Positions 12,145 to 25,542 are shown, numbered from the stretch's first letter. The stretch is DNA of 64,000 nucleotides from Bacteroidales bacterium (GCA_025454795.1 JALONT010000009.1:8827-72826), one strand, 5' to 3'. Notes: generated by a model not told the origin, from the letters alone. Program-made: numbers and translations.

Positions 12145-12561
12145 TTATAGATATTTCCTGTCCTCCTCCGGGACTTCGAAATACTTATCGTATATCTTGA
12201 CATCGGGGCCTGTCTTTCCCTCTACCTTATCACCCCTGATCTTATAGGTGCATTTCTCTCCGGCAATACCTGAAAAATAAATATTAAACTCTTTCTTGTC
12301 ATCATCAACCATTATGATCCTTACAAGGTGTTTATACTTTGCACTGTTTAACTGTGAGTGACAGATAGGACAGGTATAAGTATACTCTTCCCCTTCTTCG
12401 ATCCTGAATGAAGGATGCGTGGTGGTCACGTAATTGCCAATCTCGGGATTCAGGAAAATCAATCCTCTTTCGGAACCGTTTACTTTTGAAGCAGCAAGGA
12501 CAATAGAGGTTTTTACGTTAAGAAGTCCCCTGCAAACTTTACATAAATATTCAGTAGCCAT
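12145..12561 (-). CDS. Zinc-ribbon-like protein of unknown function, last gene of the hydrogenase operon
   Basis: 138 aa with two CxxC knuckles (CKVC at residues 7-10, CPIC at 74-77). Its start overlaps the stop of the maturation protease gene by 11 nt. I recognise no family. Confidence 0.6.
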   Translation of the reverse strand: MATEYLCKVCRGLLNVKTSIVLAASKVNGSERGLIFLNPEIGNYVTTTHPSFRIEEGEEYTYTCPICHSQLNSAKYKHLVRIIMVDDDKKEFNIYFSGIAGEKCTYKIRGDKVEGKTGPDVKIYDKYFEVPEEDRKYL

Positions 12562-13018
12562 GATGTACCTCCTGTTTATTTATTTGTTTAATAATATGTT
12601 CAGCAACATTCTTTACAAGATACGAAATATTTTCACCAAAGTCAATTTTTTCTGGCTGGATTCCCATTATAAAAACGGGCATATCGAAAAACTCAGATAA
12701 ACGTCTGACGGAAATATTGTGGGTATTGAATGTCAGATCCTCTATCTCGCAAATATCCAATAATTTAAATGTACCCGGGGGCGAATTCATTTCAAGACAA
12801 TCAATGAGAATAAGTAAATCGGGATTCAGGCAGTTTATTTTTCCTATATAGTTTTCAATACTGGTTTCTGCATTAAGAGCTGATATGTTTCCTCTGGTTA
12901 TTATTCTACTGCTTATATAAACACCAACACCATCATCCATTTTAAGGAGATTGCCTATTCCGACAAAAAGTATTTTTTCCCCTTTTCGTTCAAGCAGTCT
13001 ATGCAGGTCATCAAACAC
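12551..13018 (-). CDS. hycI: [NiFe] hydrogenase maturation endopeptidase (HycI-type)
   Basis: 155 aa. GIGNLLKMDDGVG motif plus the downstream Asp (LILIDC) and His (NTHNIS) positions typical of HycI/HybD proteases. Confidence 0.85.
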   Translation of the reverse strand: MFDDLHRLLERKGEKILFVGIGNLLKMDDGVGVYISSRIITRGNISALNAETSIENYIGKINCLNPDLLILIDCLEMNSPPGTFKLLDICEIEDLTFNTHNISVRRLSEFFDMPVFIMGIQPEKIDFGENISYLVKNVAEHIIKQINKQEVHHGY

Positions 13019-13631
13019 CTTTGTATAAGTATTTTACAAGAATCATTCTCAGGCAATTAGGACAAATGATATTGAACATATCCTTTCTTTTCAGATGGTC
13101 CTTTATTTCTACACCGATATCCTGCCCGTCTGCCAGCTTAAGTTTCTGGTTAAGTATGTTGAGATTCAGAATTGAAGAAAATGCTTTTGTACCAAGCTTC
13201 CTGTGCATGTAATGCAAATGCTCTTTTGTAGTAATCACTGCACCACAACTTTCACAAATCAGCAGCTCTTTTTCCTGATATTCAATACTTTTTGACTTAT
13301 CAAATACTGCCAGGTCGTATATCTTATCTGATAGTTTTACTCCCTTCCTGGTAATACAATGTTCCTGACACTGACCACAGAAGATACATTTCCCGTAATC
13401 TCTTTTAATTATCCTGATACCTTTTTCTTTGTCATCTGTAAAAGTTATTGCCTGGGGAGGACAAACATTTGCACATGTCTCGCATCCCACACAGTTCTCG
13501 TTATCAACGACAGGTTTGCCTCTGAAATTTTCAAAGGGGATGTGAGGCTCCTGTGGAAATTTTGATGTATAGGCCGGTGTAACCAGCGAAATAATTGCCT
13601 CTCTTAATTCACGTATCTTTGGATACTTCAT
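13011..13631 (-). CDS. 2x[4Fe-4S] ferredoxin-like subunit (NuoI/MbhN/HycF-like) with a Cys-containing C-terminal extension
   Basis: Cluster motifs CVGCETCANVCP and CIFCGQCQEHC. An extra ~80 aa carries CESCG...CPNC. Confidence 0.8.
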   Translation of the reverse strand: MKYPKIRELREAIISLVTPAYTSKFPQEPHIPFENFRGKPVVDNENCVGCETCANVCPPQAITFTDDKEKGIRIIKRDYGKCIFCGQCQEHCITRKGVKLSDKIYDLAVFDKSKSIEYQEKELLICESCGAVITTKEHLHYMHRKLGTKAFSSILNLNILNQKLKLADGQDIGVEIKDHLKRKDMFNIICPNCLRMILVKYLYKGV

Positions 13632-13945
13632 TTCACAGAATCTTTATAATCGTCCTTTACGGTTCTTTTGTCAAGTTTTGCACCGAAGTGATATGCACCG
13701 TGAATGAGTGCATGAGCTGCTACGGTTGAACTGAAAAAGATTATCGGTATGGCAAGCAGCGATTTAAAAAACGCATCACCTATTCCAAAATGAAAAGCAG
13801 CTCCAAGCAATATGCTGCAACACCCCAGTGTTACACATTTTGTAGCTGACTGGAGCCTGTTATAAACATCAGGGAGACGGATCAGTCCTATACATCCGAA
13901 AATGTTGAATAAGACACCTATACATATTAATATAACAGCTATCAT
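13628..13945 (-). CDS. mrpG: Mrp antiporter subunit G-like (MbhC-like)
   Basis: 105 aa, 3 TM helices, GLIRLPDVYNRLQSATKCVTLG motif. Confidence 0.8.
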   Translation of the reverse strand: MIAVILICIGVLFNIFGCIGLIRLPDVYNRLQSATKCVTLGCCSILLGAAFHFGIGDAFFKSLLAIPIIFFSSTVAAHALIHGAYHFGAKLDKRTVKDDYKDSVK

Positions 13946-13946
13946 A

Positions 13947-14213
13947 TTACTCGTTTAGTTTTTTGCCAGTGAGGTATTTTGCCAATGTAAGTGTTCCAAT
14001 AAAACTCAGAATGATCCAGGCGATGCCGATATCAAGAATAAAAGATCTTTCTGTCAGGATGGCTATTATAGCACATATACCCACGACAAGAATACCAAAG
14101 ATATCAATACCGACCATCCGGTCAGGGATAGTGGGGCCGCGAATGATCCTGTACAAACAGACACCGCTCAACCCTATCTGAATGTAAAGCAATATGTTGA
14201 GTAATTCAGTCAT
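13947..14213 (-). CDS. mrpF: Mrp antiporter subunit F-like (MbhB-like)
   Basis: 88 aa, RIIRGPTIPDRMVGIDI motif. Confidence 0.8.
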   Translation of the reverse strand: MTELLNILLYIQIGLSGVCLYRIIRGPTIPDRMVGIDIFGILVVGICAIIAILTERSFILDIGIAWIILSFIGTLTLAKYLTGKKLNE

Positions 14214-14698
14214 TCGATTATATTTTTAATGTACTTTTCAAATTTCCCGGTAATCATTCTTGTATATACATCAGGATTATCTGATCTTACATAAATCCAG
14301 TGCACAAAGAGATTATCGCCGATTATATCCACTGTGATGGTACCCGGAGTCATCGTTATTGAATTTGCAAGAAGAGTCCTCGCCAGTTCTGAATTAAGCG
14401 TTGTTTTTACTTTTACTATTCCCGGTTTAATCGGCATTGCAGGATGAAGCACCCTGTAGGCAACATCAAAGTTTGCCTTTATGCATTCCCATATAAAAAC
14501 GACGAGGTACACCAGTAACCAGAAATAGCGCTGTGGTTGTAAAAGTTTATAAACATTCGTTATAAAAAATCTTCCAAAGAACAAAGCACAGATTCCTGAA
14601 GCAACAGTCCCTACAATAATATTGGGAAGAGTCAGCTTAAATGTCAGAAGAAGCCAGAATACCAGTGATAATATAAACAGTGTAATATATTTCATCAT
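14210..14698 (-). CDS. mrpE: Mrp antiporter subunit E-like (MbhA-like)
   Basis: ANSITMTPGTITVD motif. The likely start is the internal MMKYITLF rather than the ORF-track start at 14728. Confidence 0.75.
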   Translation of the reverse strand: MMKYITLFILSLVFWLLLTFKLTLPNIIVGTVASGICALFFGRFFITNVYKLLQPQRYFWLLVYLVVFIWECIKANFDVAYRVLHPAMPIKPGIVKVKTTLNSELARTLLANSITMTPGTITVDIIGDNLFVHWIYVRSDNPDVYTRMITGKFEKYIKNIIE

Positions 14699-14790
14699 AA
14701 AACAATTTATTCTAAAGGTATGATGCAACCTCCATGTGGTTGATTACTATTTTATTATGTTTTAATATGTAAATACATGGAGGTTTCATC

Positions 14791-16326
14791 CTATTGTCCG
14801 ATTATTGTTGATGAGTATTTTAACGGGTCAGTAAGAATATTTATAGCCGGAGTCAGTATTGTTTCCCTGATTTCCGGTATAATCAGCAGGCTGAGCATCA
14901 GACATATAATACTCAGAATGACCATGCTGAAAACCATCGGGAATGGAACTTCTTTTATCTTATCCCTTTTAATATCTGATTTATTATAGAATGCATACCG
15001 CTGGAATTTAAGGAATGAAGCAAGGGTAATTATGCTGACAATTACTGCAAGAACTGCCAGCAGATAAAACCTTGCCATTACAGCAGCAATTATGATGACC
15101 AGTTTACTGAAAAATCCGTTAAATGGAGGTATACCTGATATAGACATTGATGCAACAAATGAAGTGGCTGATGTAGCAGGCATATCTTTGGCCAATCCGC
15201 CCATCTCCTTAAGATCACGGGTGCCAATAGTATATTCTATTGCTCCGGCATTCAGAAACAGTAATCCCTTAAAAGCAGCATGGTTAATTAGATGGAAAAT
15301 TCCCCCGGTAATTGCAAGAGCCGCAACTTCAGGTTTGATGCCCCTGGAGACAAGTATCATTCCAATACCTACAGAAAGAACTACATACCCCATCTGGCTT
15401 ATACTGTGATATGCAAGAAGCCTTTTAATATCCCATTGACCAATAGCCAGGAAGACACCTATAACCATCGATAATGTTCCGAGTGTAGTTATCAGGATTG
15501 ACATGCTTTCACTAATAATGAACATATTAAAGAACAGCCTGATAATTACATATATACCGACAGCTTTTATCAGCACCCCCGAAAGCATTGCTGAAATAGG
15601 GGAGGGTGCTGATGAATGCGCATCAGGCAGCCATGCATGGAAAGGAATTATGGCTGCCTTAAGTCCAAAGCCGCTTAAAATAACTATCTGGACAAAAAGA
15701 TAATATGTTTTGTCATAGCCATTGCTGAAAGCTGTTTTAATGTCGGCAATATTCAGTGTTTTGGCTTTCCAGTAAATTAATCCGATCCCAATCAGGATTA
15801 AAAACGATGCAAGAGCTCCCAAAACCTGGTATTTGAATGAAGCTTCCAGTTCATTCTTCTCAACTCCAAAAGCTACAAGAGCATAAGATGATATGACAGA
15901 TATTTCGAGGAAAACGAAGATATTGAAAAGGTCACCGCTGATTACCACACCATTCATTCCGGCAATCATCAGGCAGAATAGAGCGTAGAAATAGTTTTCG
16001 GCAGTATATCTTTTTATGTAAGATATTGAATAGAAGGCAGATAAGAATCCGATAAGATTTATTATACAGACGATAATTGCAGTGAATCCATCCATAACCA
16101 TATAAATGCCGATCGGAACTTTGTTTACCGGCTCCCATCCGCCTACTTTATAAACATAAATGTTTTCCCCGGTTGTGAAAAGGAAATAGAAGCTGATACA
16201 AGCAAGGAACAGAAGTATAAGGGATGTGAAGTACTTGTTAAAATCACTGACGAACCTCCCGATGATCATTATCAGAAAAGCCCCGGCCAGCGGTGTTATA
16301 ACAAAAAATGGTAACAATGGATTCAT
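14791..16326 (-). CDS. mrpD: Antiporter-like subunit, MrpD/NuoM-N family (second proton/sodium-translocating subunit)
   Basis: 511 aa and polytopic. Motifs FHAWLPDAHSSAP, AYHSISQMGY, HLINHAAFKGLLFL. Confidence 0.85.
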   Translation of the reverse strand: MNPLLPFFVITPLAGAFLIMIIGRFVSDFNKYFTSLILLFLACISFYFLFTTGENIYVYKVGGWEPVNKVPIGIYMVMDGFTAIIVCIINLIGFLSAFYSISYIKRYTAENYFYALFCLMIAGMNGVVISGDLFNIFVFLEISVISSYALVAFGVEKNELEASFKYQVLGALASFLILIGIGLIYWKAKTLNIADIKTAFSNGYDKTYYLFVQIVILSGFGLKAAIIPFHAWLPDAHSSAPSPISAMLSGVLIKAVGIYVIIRLFFNMFIISESMSILITTLGTLSMVIGVFLAIGQWDIKRLLAYHSISQMGYVVLSVGIGMILVSRGIKPEVAALAITGGIFHLINHAAFKGLLFLNAGAIEYTIGTRDLKEMGGLAKDMPATSATSFVASMSISGIPPFNGFFSKLVIIIAAVMARFYLLAVLAVIVSIITLASFLKFQRYAFYNKSDIKRDKIKEVPFPMVFSMVILSIICLMLSLLIIPEIRETILTPAINILTDPLKYSSTIIGQ

Positions 16327-16329: not shown

Positions 16330-16668
16330 CTATCCTCTTAAGTTTTTAATCTCTCTGATATCGAAAGTTCCGTATTTCCTGTATAGTCTGATAATTATTG
16401 TCATCAGCATAGCAGTTGTTGCCAGCCCGATAACAATAGCTGTCAGCACCATAGCCTGGGGCAAAGGATCTACATATGTTTTTACCGGATCAGCCGGATC
16501 AACTATTGGTGCAACTCCTCCGTCTACATATCCAATTAGCGCGAAAAGCAGAAAGATGCTGATTTCCATTATGGAAAGTGAAACGGCTATTTTAACAAGG
16601 TTCCTTCTTGTAATTACTCCATACAATCCCACGAGAAATAATATGAAACACATTATGTATGCTATCAT
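16330..16668 (-). CDS. mrpC: Mrp antiporter subunit C-like (NuoK/MbhG-like)
   Basis: 112 aa, 3 TM helices, NuoK-like pattern. It overlaps the upstream gene by 4 nt. Confidence 0.8.
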   Translation of the reverse strand: MIAYIMCFILFLVGLYGVITRRNLVKIAVSLSIMEISIFLLFALIGYVDGGVAPIVDPADPVKTYVDPLPQAMVLTAIVIGLATTAMLMTIIIRLYRKYGTFDIREIKNLRG

Positions 16669-17102
16669 TGCGGCGACTCCTCCTTAAAAATTATGAGTGA
16701 AAGAAATATTATAAAAATTGATGCAGCGACTTCAGTACCGACAAAAATATTATAGAGTGGTAAAACGCCGGCACTGATGAGTTGCCCGACAACACCTTTG
16801 GGAAGGAAATTACTAAAAAAGATATGGATCCCGAACAAAAAACCTGCAGTGGCAATCATAATTACCATGAGGATAGAAATGCTTTCAACTATTGTTGTCC
16901 CTGCTTCTTCCTTTACAAGTTTCAGAAAATCGCCGCCATAAGCGAGGGTAACCAGGATAAGCGATCCAGCGATAATGACTCCTCCTGCGAAGCCTCCTCC
17001 GGGAGTAAGATGGCCATGTACTATGATATAAATTCCGTACATGAAAATCATCCCCGCAATAAGCTGAGTTGTCTTTTTCACTATTAACGTCATCCCTTTC
17101 AT
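16665..17102 (-). CDS. mrpB: Mrp antiporter subunit B-like (MbhF-like)
   Basis: 145 aa, HGHLTPGGGFAGG motif. Confidence 0.8.
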   Translation of the reverse strand: MKGMTLIVKKTTQLIAGMIFMYGIYIIVHGHLTPGGGFAGGVIIAGSLILVTLAYGGDFLKLVKEEAGTTIVESISILMVIMIATAGFLFGIHIFFSNFLPKGVVGQLISAGVLPLYNIFVGTEVAASIFIIFLSLIIFKEESPQ

Positions 17103-17180: not shown

Positions 17181-17708
17181 CTATTTCTTCCCTTTCAATC
17201 TTAAAATAGTCAGCACACCCAGCACTGCGGTAACCAGCACAACTGCTTCTCCCATAGTATCATATCCCCTGAAATCAAAAACAACACCGGTGACAAGATT
17301 CGCACTTCCTGTTTTATATGCAGCACCTTCAATATATGGTCCTGCCATTCTTAAAGTACTTTTCCCGAGAACATCAAGCTGTTGGATCGATGCAATAAAG
17401 AACCAGAGGAAAATAAATATCAAAATAATTCCGGTTGCGGCAGAGACATATCCCATTGTGTCAGGTTTTGAGTATTTCTCCTCCCTGGAACTGTCAAGGA
17501 CCACGGCGACCATTATTATCAGGGTAATTGTATCCACAACTATCTGGACAATAGCAAGATCAGGTGCTTTAAGCAACAGGAAGCATATTACGAGGCTGTA
17601 TCCCACAATGCCACAGGCGATTACTGAAGAGAGCAGATCTTTTGCATGAATTGCATACAAAGCTCCTAAAATCATTAATCCTGTTATTACAGATATTGCC
17701 AGTTCCAT
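17181..17708 (-). CDS. MrpA C-terminal-like membrane subunit (DUF4040 / MbhD+MbhE-like)
   Basis: 175 aa. Contains [22 protein letters not shown], the MbhE/MnhB-N type motif. Confidence 0.75.
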
Positions 17709-17722: not shown

Positions 17723-19582
17723 TTATATCATAATGAGGAGCATAATAACAAGTCCTGCAAAAACCCAGATTACATAACCGGATAAAACACCGGAATGAGC
17801 TTCACTCAGCTGGTGGCTGAACCATAAAACAAACTGTTTTGACAAATCATAAATGTCAAAATACTTTTCTTCAGCTTTCCTGTATATCCAGGCGAAAAAT
17901 CTGAATTCTCCAATTGTTTTATAGAATTCCGGCGTTGAATAACCGGTCTGTTCCTGAATTTTTTCTCCTCCTATGAAGCTGTCTTCAGTCCGGAATTTTT
18001 TCAGGCTTACTGCCAGGTATAGAATTATTCCGAGGATAATTGAGACTAAAACAAGGAATGAAACAAATGAAGAATTCCAGAAACCCGGAAACTCAAATGT
18101 ACCTGAAACGGGCATCAGAAGCTTTGGAACTACCAGGTTTGTGGCAAAAACTCCAAAGAAGATGCAGAATATTGCAAGTACAACCAATGGTACCCACATC
18201 AATACCGGAACTTCCCTGACTTTTTCAAACTCTGGCCTGCTACGGCTAAGAAAAATACCTCCTATCAGCTTAATGAAGCTTGCAAGAGTAAGAGCTGAAC
18301 CCAGTACGGCCAGTCCCAGCCATAATATCCATAACTTACTAGCTATACCCGGTCCGGTTCCAAAATCAATGATCCCCTGGTAGATCATCCATTTCGATGC
18401 GAATCCATTGAACGGAGGTATGCCTGAAATCGACATTGCAAAAATGAGTGTGACAAAGAATGTTACGGGCATTGCTTTTGAAAGACCTCCCAGATCATCT
18501 ATTTTTTCTTTTCCTGTCCTATACTCAACACATCCTGCAGAAAGAAAAAGCCCGCTCTTATACAAGGCGTTATTCACCATATGAAAAAGTCCGGCTGCAA
18601 CACCTATCATCGAGCCCAGTCCAAAGCCGAGGATCATGTAACCTACCTGTGAAACCGCATGGAATCCAAGCAAACGCTTATAGTTATGCTGAACGAGTGC
18701 CATCATAACAGCCGTAATTATGGAAATTGCTCCAATCGTTAAAAGCAGAACTCTCAGCCAGTCATTCAATATGAACATCCCTGTAGTTATCCTTGCAAGG
18801 AAATATATTCCCAGTAGCTTGTCTAACGAAGCAGGAAGATATGCTGATGAAGAAGCAGGAGCACATTTTGCATAATCGGGTACCCATGTGTGCAACGGGA
18901 AGGCTCCGGCTTTGGTGAAGCTTCCTGTAAGCATTGCCAGAAATGCAACAACTGTAATAATATTTGTCGTTGGCACCGATACTTCTGACATGCTCAGCGA
19001 ACCGGTGATCTTCCAGATAACAGCAATACCAAGGATCATAATGCTATCAGATGCCCCAATCAATATTAATGTCTTCTTGGCGGTTGCCGAGCTCTCCTCA
19101 TCGTGCCCTTTTATCAGTTTAAATAATGTCAAACCGAGCACTCCCCAGAAAAAAAGAAACAAAAGAAGGTTATCAGACAGTACAGCACCATACGCACAAC
19201 CAAGGGTGATTAGAAAATATGGATAATAATTTTTAACTCTTCCTTCTTTTATATATACAAGTGAGTATATGTTTATCAGAACAGCGAAAACGCTTACCAA
19301 TACAATTATGAGCCTGCTCAGACTGTCAAGATTGAATGATATATGTTTTACAAAGTCAGGAGAAATATTAAGACCATAGAGATCAAGACCTGATTTACTG
19401 GAAATTTCATCCAGCCGGAATATCTGATCACCGAAAGTGTAAAGTGAAGCAGACAGAAATCCTGCATTGATGATTATCAGCAATGCGATAATTCCTTTTA
19501 CCGTCCTGAATTTATCGGGTATCAGGAGAAGCAGCAGGCCGACAACGACCGGAATTGTTATTAAGCTGAAAATCTCATCCAT
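17723..19582 (-). CDS. Antiporter-like subunit, NuoL/MrpA N-terminal family (MbhH-like)
   Basis: 619 aa and polytopic. Motifs LHTWVPDYAKCAPASSSAYL, GFHAVSQVGYM, HMVNNALYKSGLFL. Confidence 0.85.
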   Translation of the reverse strand: MDEIFSLITIPVVVGLLLLLIPDKFRTVKGIIALLIIINAGFLSASLYTFGDQIFRLDEISSKSGLDLYGLNISPDFVKHISFNLDSLSRLIIVLVSVFAVLINIYSLVYIKEGRVKNYYPYFLITLGCAYGAVLSDNLLLFLFFWGVLGLTLFKLIKGHDEESSATAKKTLILIGASDSIMILGIAVIWKITGSLSMSEVSVPTTNIITVVAFLAMLTGSFTKAGAFPLHTWVPDYAKCAPASSSAYLPASLDKLLGIYFLARITTGMFILNDWLRVLLLTIGAISIITAVMMALVQHNYKRLLGFHAVSQVGYMILGFGLGSMIGVAAGLFHMVNNALYKSGLFLSAGCVEYRTGKEKIDDLGGLSKAMPVTFFVTLIFAMSISGIPPFNGFASKWMIYQGIIDFGTGPGIASKLWILWLGLAVLGSALTLASFIKLIGGIFLSRSRPEFEKVREVPVLMWVPLVVLAIFCIFFGVFATNLVVPKLLMPVSGTFEFPGFWNSSFVSFLVLVSIILGIILYLAVSLKKFRTEDSFIGGEKIQEQTGYSTPEFYKTIGEFRFFAWIYRKAEEKYFDIYDLSKQFVLWFSHQLSEAHSGVLSGYVIWVFAGLVIMLLIMI

Positions 19583-19591: not shown

Positions 19592-20785
19592 TTATACAGA
19601 GTCCTTAATTTCATAAGTCTTTTTTACTGATAAATTAATCAGTTCTTCAGCGTTCATTATTCTATTGCCGGAATTAATGTCATACGCAACAGCCATCCTC
19701 TCTGTGCAGCAGTAGCACGGATCGACAGCAGCCAGTGAAATTGTTGCATCAGCGATAGTCTGGCCGATGCATGATTTTTTGAATGTAGCTATATTAACAT
19801 AGCTTGGCGCCCTTATTTTATGTCTGACAGGTGAGTTTGAACCATCTGACATTACAAAATGAAATACTTCTCCACGGGGAGCTTCTGCGCGCCCATTCCC
19901 GATTCCTTCGGGTATCTCTTTGACTTTAACAGTTATGTCCCCTTCTTTTTCCTTTTTCAAACCATCAAGACACTGTTCAATTATTGAAATGGATTCATAC
20001 ATTTCAAGCAACCTGACTTCTGCTTTGGCAAAAACATCACCTGCCTGGGCTGTAATTACTTTCCAGTTGACAAGAGGGTATGCAGCGTAGGGATCATCTT
20101 TGCGTACATCGATCGCCAGTCCTGATGCCCTGGCAGTTGGCCCGACAGCTCCGTAATCTATGACATCCTGCAGTGTAAGGATACCTACCCCTTTTGTCCT
20201 TGCATGAATTACCGGGTCATCCATTACAGCACCTGTAAGAAGATCAGCTTTTTTTCTGAAATCGCTCAGGGTTCCAAGGATGACAGGTATTTTATTATTC
20301 TCAATATCCCTACGCACACCCCCAACTTTAAACATGGCATAGCTGTTCCTGTTGCCTGTGATCATCTCGAAGAGGTCAAGGATAGGTTCCCTGTATTTCC
20401 ATGCCCACATAAAAACAGTATTATAACCAAGAAAATGACCGGCCAGACCAACCCAGAGAAGATGACTGTGAATACGTTCCAACTCTCCGATGATTGATCT
20501 AATATATTTTGCCCTGTTGGTAATTTCAATCTCAGCAATTTCTTCTACTGCATTTGCAAATGCAAAAGGATGTGAAGTTGAGCAGATACCGCAAATCCTT
20601 TCAACAAGGAAGAAGACCTGGTCATATGTTTTTGATTCGCTGAGCTTCTCTATACCCCTGTGATTATAACCTGTTTCCCATTTAATATCCTTCACAATCT
20701 CACCATCGCAGTAGAGTTTAAATAATTCCGGCTCTTCCTGGAGGGGATGATAAGGACCAATCGGTATAAGTGTCTTCCTGCTCAT
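19592..20785 (-). CDS. Group-4 [NiFe] hydrogenase large (catalytic) subunit (MbhL/HycE/EchE-like)
   Basis: 397 aa. Both Ni-Fe ligand pairs are present: RICGICSTSH near the N-terminus and DPCYCCTER near the C-terminus. The latter is followed by a 38-aa extension (MAVAYD...) of the kind removed by HycI-type proteases. Confidence 0.9.
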   Translation of the reverse strand: MSRKTLIPIGPYHPLQEEPELFKLYCDGEIVKDIKWETGYNHRGIEKLSESKTYDQVFFLVERICGICSTSHPFAFANAVEEIAEIEITNRAKYIRSIIGELERIHSHLLWVGLAGHFLGYNTVFMWAWKYREPILDLFEMITGNRNSYAMFKVGGVRRDIENNKIPVILGTLSDFRKKADLLTGAVMDDPVIHARTKGVGILTLQDVIDYGAVGPTARASGLAIDVRKDDPYAAYPLVNWKVITAQAGDVFAKAEVRLLEMYESISIIEQCLDGLKKEKEGDITVKVKEIPEGIGNGRAEAPRGEVFHFVMSDGSNSPVRHKIRAPSYVNIATFKKSCIGQTIADATISLAAVDPCYCCTERMAVAYDINSGNRIMNAEELINLSVKKTYEIKDSV

Positions 20786-20793: not shown

Positions 20794-21231
20794 TTATTTA
20801 AAATCTTTTCTGTAAGGATAAACACCCTCTGCCCAGTTGCCTTCAGAAATCAGTTTTTCCTGATTGGGATGATTTAAAAAATTTATTCCGAAAAGCTCAT
20901 GCATCTCCCTCTCTATCCAGTTTGAGGCATTGAACATGTTGGAAAGAGATTCGATCTCAGGATTATCCTTATCCAGAATCAAATGAATATTAAGGATCAA
21001 CCCGGATTCATCTTTACTGAAATGATAATGAATCTCAAATCCTCGTTTTGTATGTACCGCTGAAGCAATTATAAACCTGAAACCGGCTCTCTTATAGAGA
21101 TATTCTGAAACCTTCAATATAGACTCAGGTTTGATAGTGATTATAACCCGCTTCTCATTCCTGATCGATTCCCCAAGAATGTCACTCTTGAAATTTGACC
21201 TGAAATCTTCTATAATTGTTTTTGTATCCAT
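20794..21231 (-). CDS. NuoC/MbhK-like hydrogenase subunit
   Basis: 145 aa, WIEREMHELFGINFLNHP motif of the 30-kDa subunit family. Confidence 0.85.
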   Translation of the reverse strand: MDTKTIIEDFRSNFKSDILGESIRNEKRVIITIKPESILKVSEYLYKRAGFRFIIASAVHTKRGFEIHYHFSKDESGLILNIHLILDKDNPEIESLSNMFNASNWIEREMHELFGINFLNHPNQEKLISEGNWAEGVYPYRKDFK

Positions 21232-21301: not shown

Positions 21302-21715
21302 TTATATAGTTCCAACCAGCTTCACGATCCCTGCAATTATGGCTTCCGGTTTCGGCGGGCACCCTGGAATATAGGCATTAACAGGGATTATTTTATCAAC
21401 TGGTCCTGCAAAAGTGTTTCCTTCAGCGAATATCCCGCCTGTACATCCGCAGGCTCCGATTGCTACCACAAGCAATGGCTTGGGTGCCTGATTATAGAGT
21501 TCGATCAATCTATCCTTATCTCTCCTGTTTATCGATCCGTTAACCAGAAGTACATCAGCATGCCTGATACTACCTACCAGAAGAATGCCAAAGCGCTCAA
21601 GATCATGTCTTGGTGTAAGACAATCAAGTATTTCTATATCACAATTATTGCAGGAGGCCCCCCCGAAGTGAAAGACCCAAAGTGACTTCTTGAAGCAATA
21701 ATTTTTAAATCCCAC
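21302..21715 (-). CDS. Group-4 [NiFe] hydrogenase small subunit (NuoB/MbhJ-like)
   Basis: [4Fe-4S] ligand pattern GGASCNNCDIE ... AIGACGCTGG ... PGCPP. The ORF-track ATG at 21781 would overlap the upstream gene by 55 nt. A GTG at 21715, 12 nt after the upstream stop, fits better, but the start is uncertain. Confidence 0.8.
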   Translation of the reverse strand: MGFKNYCFKKSLWVFHFGGASCNNCDIEILDCLTPRHDLERFGILLVGSIRHADVLLVNGSINRRDKDRLIELYNQAPKPLLVVAIGACGCTGGIFAEGNTFAGPVDKIIPVNAYIPGCPPKPEAIIAGIVKLVGTI

Positions 21716-21726: not shown

Positions 21727-22659
21727 TTAGTAACCAAATGAAATCAGTACCAGGGCAATAACAGCCAGCAGGTTCATCCATAAGAAAAAGAAACTGACAG
21801 CCTGCTTTATCTTTACCCTTGGATTGGTGTTCCTTATCAAAGTTAATACAAGCACTACCGCAAGCACCTTCAATACTGCCCAGAGAATATGAATGCCATC
21901 AAGTCTGAAACCATTCATCAGCAGTGCAATAAGAAATGCCGGAAGGATGAATAACATAATGTACTTTGTAAGCTTTATCATTGCATATGCAGCTCCGGAG
22001 TATTCAATAAAAATACCTTCGGTTATTTCTGCTTCAGCCTCGGGCATATCGAAAGGGACAAGTGCCAGTTTAGCCTGAATGCAGAATATACCTACAATGA
22101 ATAAAATAACCCCTGAGATGCTTCCTATGAAAGGGGCACCTGCCTGTTGAGCCTGAATTATTGAGTACAGATCAATTTTTTGTTCGGTTTTCATAATAAT
22201 CCCTGCAATCACCAGCAGGAATGTCAGTTCATAGCTCATAATCAGCTTCATTTCTCTTGAGCTGCCTACAGCAGCAAGAGGATTTCCGGAAGCAAGAGCG
22301 CCGATAATATATGAAAAAGAGGGGATTGTAAGCAGGTAGAATATAACAAGAAGATCTCCTCTGAATCCGCTTGTGATATTTAATAAGGGAAGGAGAATAA
22401 ATACACCTGCCATAGTGGCTCCGAAAACAGCAAAAACAGGTGCAAGAAGGAATATCAAAGGTGAACCGTGCTTTGGCAGGATTGTCTCCTTGACCAGCAA
22501 CAATTTGAAGAAATCGTAAAATGGCTGCAACAGGGGAGGCCCCTGGCGAAACTGGACCCTGGCACTGATTTTCCTGTCGAACCAAGATAGAAATGCTCCT
22601 GTTACTGCAGTGAAGAGCAATCCGGGGAAGACAAGAAAATAAAACAGGTTAACTGCCAT
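21727..22659 (-). CDS. NuoH/MbhM/HycD-like membrane subunit
   Basis: 310 aa and polytopic, RKISARVQFRQGPP motif. Confidence 0.85.
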   Translation of the reverse strand: MAVNLFYFLVFPGLLFTAVTGAFLSWFDRKISARVQFRQGPPLLQPFYDFFKLLLVKETILPKHGSPLIFLLAPVFAVFGATMAGVFILLPLLNITSGFRGDLLVIFYLLTIPSFSYIIGALASGNPLAAVGSSREMKLIMSYELTFLLVIAGIIMKTEQKIDLYSIIQAQQAGAPFIGSISGVILFIVGIFCIQAKLALVPFDMPEAEAEITEGIFIEYSGAAYAMIKLTKYIMLFILPAFLIALLMNGFRLDGIHILWAVLKVLAVVLVLTLIRNTNPRVKIKQAVSFFFLWMNLLAVIALVLISFGY

Positions 22660-22670: not shown

Positions 22671-23168
22671 TTATTTGGTTTCAGTAATATACAAATACTC
22701 TTTTACAAGTACTTTTTCATTTAGACTGTAAATATGTTTTTCGGGAGATTCATTCTCATCGGTCAGAGTCACAGTTCCTTCAGGGCAGGCATCGATGAAT
22801 TTCTTTACATCCTTTTCATCTTTCAGGTCACAGAAAAGATCTCTGTTCCTGTGGTGTCTGAAGAAATCTGTCATCATGGTTCCAAATGGGCAAATCGTAA
22901 CACACGATTTGCATGATACACAAAGATTGGTATGCCGTGTTATCAATCCGGCTTCATCCTTTTCAAGAGCATCAGCCGGACAAACGCTGATGCAGGGTGC
23001 ATCTTCGCATTTTCTGCAGGTGTAACTGAAGATTGCAAGCTCACGGATGCTCTTAAGCCCGTTTTTATTGGCTGACGGATAGAAATAGCCATCCGGTAAT
23101 GCAAATGCAGGATTGTCAACTAGTGCAGCCCGGATTTTAATCATATCTATCAGAATCTTTTGCTCCAT
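22671..23168 (-). CDS. HycB/CooF-like multi-[4Fe-4S] electron-transfer protein
   Basis: 165 aa with CRKCEDAPCISVCP and CVSCKSCVTICP, plus additional Cys (C...ACPEG). Confidence 0.75.
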   Translation of the reverse strand: MEQKILIDMIKIRAALVDNPAFALPDGYFYPSANKNGLKSIRELAIFSYTCRKCEDAPCISVCPADALEKDEAGLITRHTNLCVSCKSCVTICPFGTMMTDFFRHHRNRDLFCDLKDEKDVKKFIDACPEGTVTLTDENESPEKHIYSLNEKVLVKEYLYITETK

Positions 23169-23213: not shown

Positions 23214-23669
23214 TTAAATTGTCAGCTGGTTCATAAGCTGGAACCTTGTATCACTAAGCCTGTGCGAGATAGTCTGAGCAATTTTTGCCATTGTTTTAAA
23301 TCCGAACTTGCAGTTTTTTTCCAACTCAAGATTGAGTTGTTTTGCATCAATAGCCAGTACTTTTGTAGGACATGTTGCCATTACCCATGCTGTTGAGATA
23401 TGTGGTTTGAAGACTGCAGACCACGAAAAGAGCTGACCCTCCTCCAATGTACCGAGGTGGATTCTCTTTTCACTTGCCAGGCTTATTCCTAAGGATAAGC
23501 ATCCTTCAAATAATACAAAAACATCGGAAAGTTCATCATACTGTTCAAACAGCATTTCTTTTACTTTGAACTCCTTTATTGAACTGATACGGATAAATAT
23601 ATTCAATTCTTCGTCATCATAATTGTCAAAAAACCTGATTTTTTTTAACTCGCTAATTGTCACTTTCAT
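23214..23669 (-). CDS. Stand-alone cyclic-nucleotide-binding-like (CAP effector) domain protein, no DNA-binding domain
   Basis: 151 aa. The beta-roll pattern is typical of cNMP-binding domains (FFDNYDDEEL...FEQYDELSDVFVLFEG...GTLEEGQLFSWSAV...ATCPTKVLAIDAKQL). The protein ends after the C-helix and has no HTH. Confidence 0.65.
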   Translation of the reverse strand: MKVTISELKKIRFFDNYDDEELNIFIRISSIKEFKVKEMLFEQYDELSDVFVLFEGCLSLGISLASEKRIHLGTLEEGQLFSWSAVFKPHISTAWVMATCPTKVLAIDAKQLNLELEKNCKFGFKTMAKIAQTISHRLSDTRFQLMNQLTI

Positions 23670-23720
23670 GATCTTTATTATTAAGTAAAAAAATGAAATA
23701 ATTTTCTGATTTCTTGTTCA

Positions 23721-24578
23721 TTATTTCCATATTTCAGGATTATGTTTTATTTCATCATATGTAAACACAGGTCCATCTTTGCAGACAAAAAACTCACCCA
23801 TCATGCAATGACCGCATTTACCTAAACCGCACGACATGTTTTTTTCCATCGACAGGTATATCTGGTTATCCTGATACCCCAGCTCAAGAAGTCTGATAGT
23901 ACCGAACTTCATCATTATCGGCGGCCCGCAAACTATTGCAACAGAATTATTTATATTGATATCGATTTTATTCAGCAATATAGTTACAACTCCAACTGAA
24001 CCTTTCCAACCTTCATCTGCCCTGTCTACTGTCCGGTAAGCCTCAAATTTTTCAATGCTGTTTAATCTGTCAAACAAAGGTTTGTAGATGCAATCTACAG
24101 GTGTTTTGGATCCGTAGCAAAGGGTAACCTTCCTCAGTTTGTCCTTTATACCCTCAAGGGCATATAACAACGACCTGATAGGCGCAAGCCCGCAACCACC
24201 GCCAAGAATCAGAACTTCTTTATCATAAAATGTCTCAACAGGGTAACCTCTGCCGTATGGTCCTCTTATCCCCATGCAAACTCCGGGTTTCAGCGAATGC
24301 ATATATTCAGTTACATAACCTGTTTTCATGACAGTCACTTCAAGCTTTTCTGTAATAAAAGGGGAAGAAGACGGAGTAAAAGGAGCCTCACCGATACCAT
24401 CGACTGATAATTCAATAAACTGACCGGTTTTGAATGCGAACCTCTCTTCAGGTACCAGGACAAATGTCTTTATCAGAGGTGATTCTTCAATGACGTTTGT
24501 CAGCTTTGCTTTAAGAGGCCTATATATATTCATGTTATCCGGCATACTGTTACTTTGCAAGTTCCATGAAAATTTCAT
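23721..24578 (-). CDS. FAD/NAD(P)H-binding [2Fe-2S] oxidoreductase subunit (HydG / AsrB / PyrK-like)
   Basis: 285 aa. FNR-like fold motifs GQFIELSV, IRGPYG and LILGGGCGLAPI. C-terminal CGLGKCGHCMMGEFFVCKDGPVF [2Fe-2S] motif. Confidence 0.8.
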   Translation of the reverse strand: MKFSWNLQSNSMPDNMNIYRPLKAKLTNVIEESPLIKTFVLVPEERFAFKTGQFIELSVDGIGEAPFTPSSSPFITEKLEVTVMKTGYVTEYMHSLKPGVCMGIRGPYGRGYPVETFYDKEVLILGGGCGLAPIRSLLYALEGIKDKLRKVTLCYGSKTPVDCIYKPLFDRLNSIEKFEAYRTVDRADEGWKGSVGVVTILLNKIDININNSVAIVCGPPIMMKFGTIRLLELGYQDNQIYLSMEKNMSCGLGKCGHCMMGEFFVCKDGPVFTYDEIKHNPEIWK

Positions 24579-25542
24579 TCTTATTGATCTTACCTATGCA
24601 TCCTTCAATACATCTGCCGCACCCGGTACAGGCAAGTGATCTGAATTTCTCAGGCTTCCAGACATATTTGCACATATACCTGTTTCTGAAGCGATTGTGA
24701 AGTTCGTATAAGGCATCCTCGCCCCCGGCAACCCTTTCAAATCCGGGATACTGGCAGGTATCCATCTGTTTTACCTTTTCAAATCCGGGTTTGTCGATGA
24801 GAAGAAAACATGTGCATGTCGGACAGGCTGTTGTACATGCACCGCAGGACACACAATGGACAGAATACTTTTCCCAGATATCCACTCTCGCTTTTGTAAC
24901 AAGTTTACCGGTGGTTTCATAATCCGGTAAACCCTTATTGGCAGCTGACAGTAATGACTCAGTGACGTTATGTTCTTTATCAATTGCTGAAATTATTTCT
25001 TTATTATCAACCGGACTGGCTGAAGGGATATTGTTTATGAATTCTTTTCCCTTACCGGAAATAATCCTGAAAATCATATTTCCGTCAAGATTCATGACTG
25101 CGAGGTCGGCATTTATAGTTGAATAGGGCTTTATATTATAAGTCATGCAATGGCAATGCTCCTGAATGCCAAAACAATCGGCTGATATCAGAAGTGTGTT
25201 CTCTCGGCGTTCCCTGTAATGGATATCCGGGAACACATCATCGAGGTAGATTTCATCCAGCAGGGATAACCCTTCAATATCGCAATTTGGTGTTCCAATA
25301 ATAATTCTTGGCTTTTCAGCACTCCTTTCGGACGTAACATTCTCCTTAATGGGAAGAAAAAAACTTTTAAGTGAAGTGGCAGGCTTGGGTTTGTTGTAGG
25401 AAATTGAAGGTATATCAACAGGTTCGATCAATTCATAATCCTGTCCAAATTCATTAATAACACTTGCGAAAATGGTATGGGACGATAACAGACTCTCTAA
25501 AACCTTGTCCCACTCTTCTTTTTTTATGCTCTTATATTGCAT
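24550..25542 (-). CDS. Iron-sulfur subunit (HydB / AsrA-like), first gene of the hydrogenase operon
   Basis: 330 aa with CVSCGACTTACPTCTCF and CTGCGRCIEGC motifs, characteristic of sulfhydrogenase beta / AsrA proteins. It overlaps the next gene by 29 nt. Confidence 0.75.
   Translation of the reverse strand: MQYKSIKKEEWDKVLESLLSSHTIFASVINEFGQDYELIEPVDIPSISYNKPKPATSLKSFFLPIKENVTSERSAEKPRIIIGTPNCDIEGLSLLDEIYLDDVFPDIHYRERRENTLLISADCFGIQEHCHCMTYNIKPYSTINADLAVMNLDGNMIFRIISGKGKEFINNIPSASPVDNKEIISAIDKEHNVTESLLSAANKGLPDYETTGKLVTKARVDIWEKYSVHCVSCGACTTACPTCTCFLLIDKPGFEKVKQMDTCQYPGFERVAGGEDALYELHNRFRNRYMCKYVWKPEKFRSLACTGCGRCIEGCIGKINKNEIFMELAK

What the first reader, a model, noticed from the sequence alone, without database searches (positions are those of the whole stretch)
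12145..25542. 19-gene operon joining a true group-4 [NiFe] hydrogenase, a complete Mrp antiporter module and a HydB/HydG (AsrA/AsrB)-type NAD(P)H module
Seen in the sequence: 19 co-directional genes have gaps of at most ~80 nt and many 1-30 nt overlaps. The large subunit keeps both Ni-Fe cysteine pairs (RICGICSTSH, DPCYCCTER) and has a cleavable C-terminal extension. A HycI protease is in the operon and hypFCDEAB lies next door. This is therefore a hydrogenase, not an Mbx/Mbs or complex-I relative. The membrane arm holds two antiporter-like subunits (619 and 511 aa) plus MrpA-C/B/C/E/F/G homologues. The first two genes encode a CxxCGxCxxxCPTCxC iron-sulfur protein and an FNR/PyrK-like flavoprotein with a C-terminal [2Fe-2S] motif. 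This pair forms the NAD(P)H-oxidising beta/gamma module of soluble group-3b sulfhydrogenases and of AsrAB. A HycB-like polyferredoxin sits between this module and the core. Established knowledge: the characterised Mrp-linked group-4 enzymes (Pyrococcus Mbh, Thermococcus formate- or CO-linked complexes) take electrons from ferredoxin, formate or CO, as far as I recall. Inference: this complex would couple NAD(P)H/NAD(P)+ to H2/H+ across an ion-translocating module. It could use ion-motive force to push the endergonic NAD(P)H -> H2 reaction, or conserve energy in the reverse direction. Divergent rex and Rex boxes fit a pyridine-nucleotide link.
Basis: partly seen in the sequence, partly recalled or inferred. 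Interest (0 to 1): 0.8.

Follow-up and report, generated by a model that had tools for sequence, protein, structure and literature searches.

The report
Bacteroidales copy of the Hun hydrogenase operon
This is a real and well conserved operon for a membrane-bound nickel-iron hydrogenase joined to an Mrp-type ion-transport module and an NAD(P)H-type flavoprotein module, but the same architecture is already published as the "Hun" complex, so only its untested electron donor remains an open question.

Summary
There are 19 co-directional genes on the minus strand (25542 to 12145), with divergent rex and hypFCDEAB next door.

The novelty claim does not hold. Sixteen of the genes match, gene for gene and Pfam domain for Pfam domain, the published 16-subunit hunA-P operon of Glass et al. 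(bioRxiv 10.1101/536078). That includes the unusual CGIC/CYCC nickel-iron motif and a Rex-type regulator, hunR. That paper already lists Bacteroidetes and Kosmotoga as hosts. Kosmotoga olearia has the same order plus hycI, and its large subunit is 60% identical to the window's.

Relatives of the large subunit occur in at least 558 species-level genomes. The best 80 are all Bacteroidales/Bacteroidota MAGs, and the AsrA/AsrB-like genes are present wherever the contig reaches far enough.

What this analysis adds:
- Two Rex boxes are conserved across 54 intergenic regions.
- The NAD(P)-binding motifs of HunB and 16 cysteines of HunA are conserved across phyla.
- A stand-alone cNMP-binding-fold gene sits between hunB and hunC in 32 of 60 loci.
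- A Bacteroidales-specific 138-aa zinc-ribbon gene ends the operon.

NAD(P)H coupling is plausible, but I found no biochemical test of it. The literature mostly assumes ferredoxin as donor.

Verdict: a new member of a known but biochemically uncharacterised kind.

The parts
25728..26411 (+). rex (equivalent to hunR), the redox-sensing repressor, divergent from the operon. The true start codon is uncertain.
   Evidence: NCBIfam Rex E=2.2e-63. Pfam CoA_binding plus Put_DNA-bind_N, the same two families listed for hunR in Table S5 of 10.1101/536078. Found next to the operon in 55 of 80 loci.
25726..25743 (.). Rex box 1, TTGTGAAACAAATCACAA, at the start of rex
   Evidence: One mismatch to TTGTGAANNNNTTCACAA. 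Present at the same position in all 53 loci examined. It is a conserved island in the alignment of 54 intergenic regions.
25545..25562 (.). Rex box 2, ATGTGAGAAGATTCACAT (a TGTGA-N6-TCACA palindrome), ending 2 nt from the hunA start codon
   Evidence: The half-sites are conserved while the spacer varies, in about 40 of 53 loci. It is the second conserved island.
24550..25542 (-). hunA (g01), 330 aa: AsrA/HydB-like iron-sulfur protein
   Evidence: Fer4_22 E=3e-21. ShyB, HydB and AsrA models match over the full length. 9nez_B E=1.6e-32. All 16 cysteines are conserved in at least 98% of 62 orthologues.
23721..24578 (-). hunB (g02), 285 aa: AsrB/HydG/PyrK-like flavoprotein with FAD, NAD(P) and [2Fe-2S] sites
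   Evidence: Pfam FAD_binding_6, NAD_binding_1 and DHODB_Fe-S_bind. 9nez_C E=4.4e-48. The GGGxGLAP and CGPP motifs and four C-terminal cysteines are conserved in Bacteroidales, Kosmotoga and L083.
23214..23669 (-). g03, 151 aa: stand-alone cNMP-binding-fold protein, an accessory insert not among hunA-P
   Evidence: PF00027 E=1.3e-9. 3mdp_A E=2.8e-8. Present in 32 of 60 Bacteroidales loci; in the others hunB and hunC are 3-91 nt apart. Absent in Kosmotoga.
22671..23168 (-). hunC (g04), 165 aa: HycB/HydN/CooF-type ferredoxin connector
   Evidence: Fer4_11 E=7e-9. HydN E=1.1e-13. Same family and position as hunC.
21727..22659 (-). hunD (g05), 310 aa: NuoH/MbhM-like membrane subunit
   Evidence: PF00146 E=1.2e-63.
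21302..21715 (-). hunE (g06): NuoB-like small subunit. The likely start is GTG at 21715 (137 aa); the open frame extends to 21781.
   Evidence: PF01058 E=9.7e-31. Start codon reasoning. Kosmotoga HunE is also 137 aa.
20794..21231 (-). hunF (g07), 145 aa: NuoC/MbhK-like
   Evidence: PF00329 E=1.9e-24.
19592..20785 (-). hunG (g08), 397 aa: [NiFe] large subunit with RICGICSTSH and DPCYCCTER plus a 34-aa C-terminal extension
   Evidence: 41.6% identical to P. furiosus MbhL and 36.1% to HycE. 60% identical to Kosmotoga HunG. The CYCC motif is specific to this clade.
17723..19582 (-). hunH (g09), 619 aa: antiporter-like subunit (MbhH/NuoL/MrpA-N type)
   Evidence: Proton_antipo_M E=7.4e-55.
17181..17708 (-). 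hunI (g10), 175 aa: MbhD plus MbhE (MrpA C-terminal part)
   Evidence: PF13244 and PF20501.
16665..17102 (-). hunJ (g11), 145 aa: MnhB/MrpB-like
   Evidence: PF04039 E=1.5e-21.
16330..16668 (-). hunK (g12), 112 aa: MrpC/NuoK-like
   Evidence: PF00420 E=5.6e-27.
14791..16326 (-). hunL (g13), 511 aa: MrpD-like antiporter subunit
   Evidence: Proton_antipo_M E=5e-67.
14210..14728 (-). hunM (g14): MrpE-like
   Evidence: PF01899 E=1.1e-42.
13947..14213 (-). hunN (g15): MrpF-like
   Evidence: PF04066 E=1.9e-14.
13628..13945 (-). hunO (g16): MrpG-like
   Evidence: PF03334 E=4.1e-21.
13011..13631 (-). hunP (g17), 206 aa: NuoI/HycF/MbhN-like 2x[4Fe-4S] subunit
   Evidence: Fer4_7. Formate hydrogenlyase Fe-S subunit model E=9.4e-32.
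12551..13018 (-). hycI (g18), 155 aa: large-subunit C-terminal endopeptidase
   Evidence: TIGR00142 E=5.1e-25. A HycI gene also follows hunP in Kosmotoga.
12145..12561 (-). g19, 138 aa: conserved protein with two CxxC pairs (C7/C10 and C64/C67), function unknown
   Evidence: No Pfam or NCBIfam family. 561 homologues, all about 137-138 aa; the few that carry an organism name are Bacteroidales. Found in all 58 loci that reach this far. Absent in Kosmotoga.
26432..31972 (+). hypF, hypC, hypD, hypE, hypA, hypB maturation genes
   Evidence: Pfam matches for all six.

Best explanation
The locus is a Bacteroidales copy of the hun operon. Hun is a 16-subunit, Mrp-linked group-4 [NiFe] hydrogenase that published work places in HydDB class 4g. 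It carries an AsrAB/HydBG-like flavin and iron-sulfur input module.

Shown here:
- The gene order, domain content and CGIC/CYCC active-site motif are those of Hun.
- The operon is conserved across phyla.
- The operon sits behind conserved Rex operators.

Inferred mechanism: HunB exchanges a hydride with NAD(P)H at its FAD. Electrons then pass through the HunB [2Fe-2S] cluster, the HunA clusters (16 invariant cysteines), the HycB-like HunC, the NuoI-like HunP and the NuoB-like HunE to the Ni-Fe site of HunG. Redox turnover there is coupled through HunD and HunH and the Mrp-like subunits HunI-O to H+/Na+ movement.

NAD(P)H to H2 costs +18 kJ/mol under standard conditions and becomes downhill only below about 70 Pa H2. 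The complex would therefore run near equilibrium. It would either draw on the ion gradient to vent excess NAD(P)H as H2, or conserve a little energy in the H2-to-NAD(P)+ direction.

Rex would derepress the operon when NADH/NAD+ is high, which favours a reductant-venting role.

My confidence that this is a Hun operon is about 0.9. My confidence that NAD(P)H is the physiological partner is about 0.5.
For: Identity as Hun:
- The Pfam order of g01, g02 and g04-g17 equals hunA-P in Table S5 of 10.1101/536078.
- The CGIC/CYCC motif matches.
- hunR belongs to the Rex family.
- Kosmotoga olearia CP001634 has the same 16 genes plus hycI, all collinear at 25-60% identity.
- Among 150 representatives of 50%-identity clusters, the only full-length one with CYCC is from Kosmotoga.

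One functional unit:
- hunA and hunB are found wherever the contig extends, in 57-60 of 80 loci.
- The hunB-hunC gap is 3-91 nt when g03 is absent.
- Neighbouring genes overlap by 4 nt in Kosmotoga.
- No terminator-like site lies in the gaps.
- Co-transcription is reported for Atribacteria (PMC6469976).

NAD(P)H link:
- g02 is 9nez_C-like (sulfhydrogenase gamma, E=4.4e-48) and g01 is 9nez_B-like.
- The GGGxGLAP and CGPP motifs are conserved from Bacteroidales to Kosmotoga.
- Two Rex operators are the main conserved islands in 54 intergenic regions.
Against: - I found no biochemical data for any Hun or group-4g enzyme. The literature assumes ferredoxin as donor.
- Every characterised Mrp-linked group-4 enzyme uses a low-potential donor.
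- NAD(P)H-driven H2 evolution leaves no energy for ion pumping, so the direction of coupling is speculative.
- From memory, Rex also controls ferredoxin-dependent hydrogenases in other bacteria, so Rex control does not identify the substrate.
- A distant relative, L084, keeps a HunAB-like pair although its NAD motifs are degenerate.
- NADH versus NADPH preference cannot be read from the sequence.
Confidence: 0.55

Rival explanations
1. Hun is a ferredoxin-dependent, H2-evolving, ion-pumping hydrogenase like Mbh. HunABC would be only an extended iron-sulfur and flavin antenna that takes electrons from reduced ferredoxin, and the NAD(P) site would be vestigial or regulatory.
For: - This is the published reading for Hun and for group 4g.
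- The core is closest to ferredoxin-dependent P. furiosus Mbh (41.6% identity).
- Ferredoxin to H2 is exergonic enough to pump ions (established knowledge).
- L084 keeps the HunAB-like pair with a degenerate NAD site.
Against: - The NAD(P)-binding motifs are under clear conservation across phyla.
- The closest characterised homologues, sulfhydrogenase beta and gamma, are NAD(P)H modules.
- Mbh and Ech accept ferredoxin directly at the NuoI-like subunit without such a module (established knowledge). A conserved FAD/NAD protein would then be unexplained.
Confidence: 0.25
2. Hun is a dual-donor hub. Reduced ferredoxin would enter at HunC or HunP, while HunAB equilibrates the same iron-sulfur chain with NAD(P)(H). 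The complex would then act as a combined ferredoxin:NAD(P)+ oxidoreductase and hydrogenase, possibly with confurcation-like stoichiometry.
For: - The chain has several surface-exposed ferredoxin-type subunits (HunC, HunP) as well as a flavoprotein.
- Bird et al. state 'ferredoxin or NADH'.
- The genome also carries a HydABC-type [FeFe] hydrogenase next door, which suggests both carriers need balancing.
Against: - No second flavin or other bifurcation-type site is evident.
- HunB is related to the non-bifurcating small subunit of NfnAB and to PyrK (plus established knowledge).
- There is no experimental support.
Confidence: 0.1
3. The HunAB module reduces a sulfur compound (polysulfide, S0 or sulfite-like) rather than exchanging electrons with pyridine nucleotides. 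Hun would then be an H2- or ferredoxin-linked sulfur reductase, by analogy with sulfhydrogenase and AsrABC.
For: - Homology to sulfhydrogenase beta and gamma and to AsrA and AsrB.
- Bird et al. mention reduction of sulfur compounds.
- Some relatives carry a molybdopterin-type protein at the hunB-hunC junction.
Against: - No AsrC/siroheme or molybdopterin subunit is present in this operon, or among the ORFs of at least 110 aa (130 aa beyond 46.2 kb) annotated elsewhere in the window.
- The Ni-Fe site and HycI/Hyp maturation show that H2 chemistry is the catalytic end.
- The NAD motifs are conserved.
Confidence: 0.05
4. hunA and hunB form a separate transcription unit serving another enzyme, and only happen to lie upstream of an Mbh-type operon.
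For: Gaps of 45-51 nt flank g03 in this window.
Against: - The adjacency is conserved from Bacteroidales to Thermotogota, with 4-nt overlaps in Kosmotoga.
- The gap is only 3-91 nt when g03 is absent.
- No terminator-like site lies in the gaps.
- The Rex operator and the conserved promoter region lie only upstream of hunA.
- The pair persists even in a relative that lacks Mrp.
- Co-transcription is reported in Atribacteria.
Confidence: 0.03

Closest known systems
Hun supercomplex (hunR, hunA-P) of Atribacteria JS-1, also reported in Omnitrophica, Elusimicrobia, Bacteroidetes and Kosmotoga (bioRxiv 10.1101/536078)
   Same: The 16 genes are in the same order with the same Pfam families. The HunG motif is CGIC/CYCC and a Rex-type regulator is adjacent. 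The Kosmotoga olearia locus is collinear, with HunG 60% identical.
   Different: The Bacteroidales version adds a cNMP-binding-fold gene between hunB and hunC in about half of the genomes. It also adds a 138-aa zinc-ribbon gene after hycI, and has hypFCDEAB divergent beside rex. I did not see a direct sequence comparison with the Atribacteria proteins. Hun itself is known only from sequence analysis.
Pyrococcus furiosus membrane-bound hydrogenase Mbh (group 4d, PDB 6CFW)
   Same: The hydrogenase core (NuoB/C/D/H/I-like subunits) and a full Mrp-like module are shared. It is the best solved match for the large subunit (E=1.9e-86, 41.6% identity).
   Different: From established knowledge, Mbh has 14 subunits in the order mbhA-N, has no AsrAB-like or HycB-like subunits, and takes electrons directly from ferredoxin. 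Its L2 motif is CLSC, not CYCC.
Escherichia coli formate hydrogenlyase FHL-1 (group 4a, PDB 7Z0S)
   Same: The modular logic is the same: a soluble dehydrogenase module is wired through a HycB-type ferredoxin to HycF, HycG and HycE. The C-terminal extension is cleaved by HycI, and the tails align. HunP best matches the FHL Fe-S subunit model.
   Different: There is no formate dehydrogenase; the input module is a flavoprotein/Fe-S pair. FHL-1 lacks the Mrp small subunits. Large-subunit identity is 36.1%.
Pyrococcus furiosus sulfhydrogenase I (group 3b, PDB 9NEZ), beta and gamma subunits
   Same: g01 and g02 align over nearly their full length with the beta and gamma subunits (E=1.6e-32 and 4.4e-48). 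The FAD, NAD(P) and [2Fe-2S] motifs are shared.
   Different: The catalytic partner here is a membrane-bound group-4 core, not the soluble group-3 alpha and delta pair.
Anaerobic sulfite reductase AsrABC
   Same: The AsrA and AsrB models match g01 and g02 (E=5.7e-32 and 4.6e-60), although below their curated cut-offs.
   Different: No AsrC or siroheme subunit was found in the operon, or among the ORFs of at least 110 aa (130 aa beyond 46.2 kb) annotated elsewhere in the window.
Respiratory complex I
   Same: The concept is the same: a pyridine-nucleotide-type flavoprotein module, an Fe-S wire, a NuoB/D catalytic pocket and antiporter-like subunits.
   Different: The flavoprotein is FNR/PyrK-type, not NuoEFG. 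The acceptor is H+ at a Ni-Fe site, not quinone.

Membership tests
Hun (hunA-P, 10.1101/536078) | Sixteen genes in the order Fer4_22; FAD/NAD/2Fe2S; Fer4_11; NADHdh; Oxidored_q6; Complex1_30kDa; large subunit; Proton_antipo_M; MbhD; MnhB; Oxidored_q2; Proton_antipo_M; MNHE; MrpF; MrpG; Fer4_7 | tested here: met
   Searches compared with Table S5. The order is identical, with one extra gene (g03) inserted between hunB and hunC.
Hun (hunA-P, 10.1101/536078) | HunG metal-binding motifs CGIC (L1) and CYCC (L2) | tested here: met
   RICGICSTSH and DPCYCCTER. CYCC occurs in only one full-length representative out of 150, and that one is from Kosmotoga.
Hun (hunA-P, 10.1101/536078) | Adjacent Rex-type regulator hunR (PF02629 plus PF06971) | tested here: met
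Hun (hunA-P, 10.1101/536078) | Sequence orthology to a genome named as a Hun host | tested here: met
   All 16 subunits of the Kosmotoga olearia locus are collinear at 31-60% identity, and hycI follows at 26%.
Hun (hunA-P, 10.1101/536078) | HydDB classification of the large subunit as group 4g | not testable with these tools
   No HydDB classifier or reference set is available.
Group 4 [NiFe] hydrogenase (as opposed to Mbx/Mbs/Ehr or complex I) | Both cysteine pairs for Ni-Fe in a NuoD-like large subunit, with dedicated maturation (endopeptidase and Hyp proteins) | tested here: met
   The C-terminal tail aligns with that of HycE.
Group 4d Mbh (P. furiosus type) | A 14-gene mbhA-N layout with no extra soluble input module, and direct ferredoxin dependence | tested here: not met
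   The layout differs and HunABC is present. Donor dependence cannot be tested here.
Group 4a formate hydrogenlyase | A molybdopterin formate dehydrogenase subunit linked to the HycB-like ferredoxin | tested here: not met
   No molybdopterin protein in the operon. A relative, L083, does have one between hunB and hunC.
Group 3b sulfhydrogenase | Group-3 alpha and delta catalytic subunits together with beta and gamma | tested here: not met
   Beta and gamma homologues are present. The large subunit matches NuoD/Mbh-type models and matches ShyA/HydA only weakly (E=1e-9 and 1.8e-5).
Anaerobic sulfite reductase AsrABC | AsrC siroheme catalytic subunit | tested here: not met
   None found among the ORFs scanned against Pfam across the window (at least 110 aa, or 130 aa beyond 46.2 kb). 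The rest of the genome was not seen.
NAD(P)H-dependent FNR/PyrK-type flavoprotein (HunB) | The GGxGxxP and CGPxxM nucleotide-binding motifs, the FAD-binding segment, and four cysteines for [2Fe-2S] | tested here: met
   GGGCGLAP, CGPPIMM, GEAPFTPSSS and CGLGKCGHC...C are conserved across 66 sequences. Actual nucleotide binding was not tested.

The most novel reading that the evidence does not exclude
Hun would be the first pyridine-nucleotide-linked, ion-motive-force-coupled group-4 hydrogenase. It would act as a hydrogen-evolving analogue of complex I, letting fermenting Bacteroidales and other anaerobes vent NAD(P)H as H2 by reverse electron flow, or gain energy from H2:NAD(P)+ reduction. 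In Bacteroidales, Rex would switch it on in response to NADH, and a cNMP-binding-fold accessory protein may modulate it.
Probability: 0.4. Interest if true: 0.75.

Novelty: new member of a known kind. Interest (0 to 1): 0.4.

Why it matters
The architecture is not new. It is, however, very widespread: relatives of the large subunit occur in at least 558 species-level genomes, and the best matches are dominated by uncultured Bacteroidales. I found no biochemical characterisation of it. Metagenome studies routinely label such enzymes as ferredoxin-dependent Mbh or group 4g.

If the conserved flavoprotein module really couples the enzyme to NAD(P)H, published H2 and redox budgets for these anaerobes would need revising. 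It would also be a new type of energy coupling between the NAD(P)H pool, H2 and the sodium or proton gradient.

The conserved Rex operators and the cultured host Kosmotoga olearia make the question directly testable.

Tried and rejected
- **g19 structure.** The AlphaFold2 model of g19 from a 30-sequence alignment had mean pLDDT 54, so I ran no fold search. A sequence search of g19 against the PDB gave only chance-level hits.
- **Promoter scan.** The sigma-70 scan found no more sites than in shuffled sequence and does not model Bacteroidetes promoters.
- **Rex-box count.** Across the whole window the count at up to 3 mismatches is not significant on its own (12 found, 6.4 expected). The case for the two boxes rests on their position and cross-species conservation.
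- **Literature on function.** Searches for a biochemical or genetic characterisation of Hun, of group 4g, or of a Kosmotoga membrane hydrogenase found none.
- **NADH versus NADPH.** The residues after the second beta-strand of the NAD domain (GSKTP here, GARTP in Kosmotoga, TARYG in sulfhydrogenase gamma) do not discriminate reliably.
- **AsrAB serving a sulfite reductase.** Rejected. There is no AsrC in the window, and the synteny with the hydrogenase core spans phyla.
- **Mbx/Mbs or Ehr-type non-hydrogenase.** Rejected, because all four Ni-Fe cysteines, HycI and the Hyp proteins are present.
- **HydDB placement.** Not possible with these tools.

Full report
**Observation**

The minus strand from 25542 to 12145 carries 19 back-to-back ORFs. 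The largest gap is 78 nt and several neighbours overlap by 4-29 nt. Pfam and NCBIfam give these assignments in transcription order:
- g01: AsrA/HydB-like iron-sulfur protein (Fer4_22).
- g02: AsrB/HydG/PyrK-like flavoprotein (FAD_binding_6, NAD_binding_1, DHODB_Fe-S_bind).
- g03: a 151-aa protein that is only a cNMP-binding domain.
- g04: HycB/HydN-type ferredoxin (Fer4_11).
- g05-g08: NuoH-, NuoB- and NuoC-like subunits, then a NuoD-like large subunit with RICGICSTSH and DPCYCCTER.
- g09: a 619-aa antiporter-like subunit.
- g10-g16: MbhD+MbhE, MnhB, MrpC/NuoK, a 511-aa MrpD-like subunit, MrpE, MrpF and MrpG.
- g17: a NuoI/HycF-like 2x[4Fe-4S] protein.
- g18: HycI.
- g19: a 138-aa protein with two CxxC pairs and no family match.

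Divergent rex and hypFCDEAB are confirmed. The 34-residue tail after DPCYCCTER aligns with the extension of E. coli HycE.

Two corrections apply. The apparent 55-nt overlap of g05 and g06 disappears if the small subunit starts at the GTG at 21715. That start gives 137 aa, the same length as in Kosmotoga.

**Is it a real, selected unit?**

The large subunit has thousands of relatives. The best 120 are 86-90% identical, and those with an organism name come from Bacteroidales.

A scan of one genome per species found at least 558 stretches encoding a relative. The best 80 are all Bacteroidales or Bacteroidota MAGs at 84-92% identity. In these loci every gene from g01 to g19 is found wherever the contig reaches far enough. 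Rex is adjacent in 55 of them.

The window is about 83% identical at the DNA level to one such MAG over 20 kb. It therefore comes from an uncultured-type Bacteroidales lineage.

**What it is**

Glass et al. (bioRxiv 10.1101/536078) described a putative 16-subunit respiratory complex, Hun, in Atribacteria. They stated that the operon also occurs in Omnitrophica, Elusimicrobia, Bacteroidetes and Kosmotoga isolates.

Their Table S5 lists hunR (CoA_binding plus Put_DNA-bind_N, that is, Rex-type). It then lists hunA to hunP with exactly the Pfam families found here for g01, g02 and g04-g17, in the same order. They also single out the HunG motif pair CGIC/CYCC, which this large subunit has, and report a HydDB class of 4g.

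I checked the link at sequence level:
- Among the 150 best representatives of 50%-identity clusters, the only full-length protein with CGIC/CYCC is from Kosmotoga, at 60% identity to the window protein.
- The Kosmotoga olearia chromosome carries the same 16 genes, then hycI and hypFCD. Many neighbouring genes overlap by 4 nt.
- All 16 subunits are collinear with the window at 31-60% identity, and hycI follows at 26%.

The same association had been noted elsewhere:
- In Saganbacteria: asrA and asrB, cooF, Mrp and a group-4 hydrogenase (PMC6349859).
- In Elusimicrobia: the 'Mbh-Mrp-oxidoreductase type' (10.1101/765248).

**Boundaries of the family**

- A 60%-identical relative with a fused NuoC-D subunit and a CYSC motif (L083) keeps hunA and hunB. 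It has a molybdopterin-type protein between hunB and hunC, the variant that Glass et al. and the Saganbacteria paper mention.
- A 46%-identical relative (L084) keeps hunA-, hunB- and hunC-like genes and the NuoH/B/C/D/I core. It has no Mrp genes, and its HunB-like protein has degenerate nucleotide-binding motifs.
- Archaeal relatives at 45-48% identity (Methanoregula, Bathyarchaeota) lack hunA and hunB.
- The solved relatives are more distant: P. furiosus MbhL at 41.6% and E. coli HycE at 36.1%.

**Evidence on mechanism**

- g01 and g02 align over nearly their whole length with the beta and gamma subunits of P. furiosus sulfhydrogenase I (9nez; E=1.6e-32 and 4.4e-48).
- Across 66 HunB sequences, including Kosmotoga and L083, several features are conserved: the FAD segment GEAPFTPSSS, the nucleotide-binding motifs GGGxGLAP and CGPP, and the four [2Fe-2S] cysteines.
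- All 16 cysteines of HunA are conserved in at least 98% of 62 sequences.
- HunC is a HycB/HydN-type connector and HunP best matches the formate hydrogenlyase Fe-S subunit.

The layout therefore follows the logic of formate hydrogenlyase, with the formate dehydrogenase replaced by a flavoprotein/Fe-S pair.

The inferred electron path is: NAD(P)H, then FAD and [2Fe-2S] in HunB, then the HunA clusters, HunC, HunP and HunE, and finally the Ni-Fe site in HunG. Turnover there would be coupled through HunD, HunH and the Mrp-like subunits to ion movement.

From standard potentials (-320 mV against -414 mV), NAD(P)H to H2 costs about +18 kJ/mol. It becomes favourable only below roughly 70 Pa H2. An NAD(P)H-linked Hun would therefore work near equilibrium and could use or make an ion gradient depending on the H2 level. 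This is inference, not a result.

**Regulation**

The rex-hunA spacer holds two palindromes:
- TTGTGAAACAAATCACAA at 25726-25743, with one mismatch to the Rex consensus.
- ATGTGAGAAGATTCACAT at 25545-25562, ending 2 nt from the hunA start codon.

The window-wide count of loose matches is not significant by itself. Both boxes, however, occupy the same positions in about 40-53 other Bacteroidales loci, with invariant half-sites and variable spacers. They are also the main conserved islands in an alignment of 54 otherwise poorly conserved spacers.

Rex control fits induction when NADH is in excess. From memory, Rex also controls ferredoxin-linked hydrogenases elsewhere, so this does not identify the donor.

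**Rivals**

- The main rival is the published assumption that Hun and group-4g enzymes are ferredoxin-dependent. It fits the energetics and the Mbh-like core. It leaves the conserved NAD(P) site unexplained.
- A dual-donor hub and a sulfur-reducing role are less likely.
- A separate hunAB transcript is very unlikely, given the cross-phylum adjacency and the 3-91 nt hunB-hunC gaps when g03 is absent. No terminator-like site lies in the gaps either.
- No AsrC or group-3 hydrogenase gene was found among the ORFs of at least 110 aa (130 aa beyond 46.2 kb) scanned against Pfam across the window.

**What is new here relative to the literature**

- The operon is very common in Bacteroidales.
- Two Rex operators are conserved.
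- HunB's nucleotide-binding site and HunA's 16 cysteines are conserved across phyla.
- A clean presence/absence polymorphism exists for a stand-alone cNMP-binding-fold gene at the hunB-hunC junction: 32 of 60 loci have it. Its phosphate-binding cassette lacks the canonical Glu and Arg (sequence reading). Its best solved relative is 3mdp_A.
- A Bacteroidales-specific 138-aa zinc-ribbon gene follows hycI.

**Verdict**

The system is a new member of a known but biochemically uncharacterised kind. The electron donor and the direction of ion coupling remain an open, testable question.

Noticed in passing
window 32809-36253 (+): Directly after hypFCDEAB lie a NuoE-like gene (155 aa), a NuoF-like gene (386 aa) and a 593-aa [FeFe]-hydrogenase gene (Fer2_4, NADH-G_4Fe-4S_3, Fe_hyd_lg_C, Fe_hyd_SSU). 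Together they look like a trimeric HydABC-type (bifurcating-type) hydrogenase. With the hun operon this makes a roughly 24-kb hydrogen-metabolism island.
   Followed up: partly
window 23214-23669 (-): A stand-alone cNMP-binding-fold protein is inserted between hunB and hunC. It is present in 32 of 60 Bacteroidales loci and absent in Kosmotoga. Its phosphate-binding cassette (GQLF...KPHISTA) lacks the canonical Glu and Arg, so its ligand is probably not cAMP or cGMP. In other phyla the same junction holds a molybdopterin protein.
   Followed up: partly
window 12145-12561 (-): The last gene of the operon encodes a 138-aa protein with two invariant CxxC pairs and no known family. It has 561 homologues, all about 137-138 aa, and the few that carry an organism name are Bacteroidales. 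It is always found after hycI. The AlphaFold2 model was too poor to use (pLDDT 54).
   Followed up: partly
L084 5808-12011 (JGI 3300056594 contig, type IX secretion genes nearby): A 46%-identical relative has hunA-, hunB- and hunC-like genes and the NuoH/B/C/D/I hydrogenase core but no Mrp or antiporter genes. Its HunB-like protein has lost the GGxGxxP and CGPP motifs. It looks like a minimal Ech-like cousin of Hun.
   Followed up: partly
window 25632-25639 (+): TATCTTTG fits the Bacteroidetes -7 promoter consensus TAnnTTTG (recalled from memory) and points toward rex. Part of it (CTTTG) forms a small conserved island in the 54-sequence spacer alignment.
   Followed up: no
window 9874-12045 (-), 46275-47003 (+), 52045-53499 (-): Transketolase lies directly downstream of the operon, as it does in 30 of 80 related loci. 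A 6-phosphogluconolactonase-like gene and 6-phosphogluconate dehydrogenase (an NADPH producer) lie further along. A link to an NADPH-coupled hydrogenase is only a thought.
   Followed up: no
window 43010-62257: A uronate and pectin utilisation cluster: GH35, GH88, MFS transporters, a LacI regulator, UxaE, UxaC, KduI and short-chain dehydrogenases.
   Followed up: no
window 63169-63945 (-): An ORF matching the C-terminal half of the heme-copper oxidase subunit I family (COX1, E=3e-36) lies 55 nt from the window end. This is unexpected next to strictly anaerobic hydrogenase genes.
   Followed up: no
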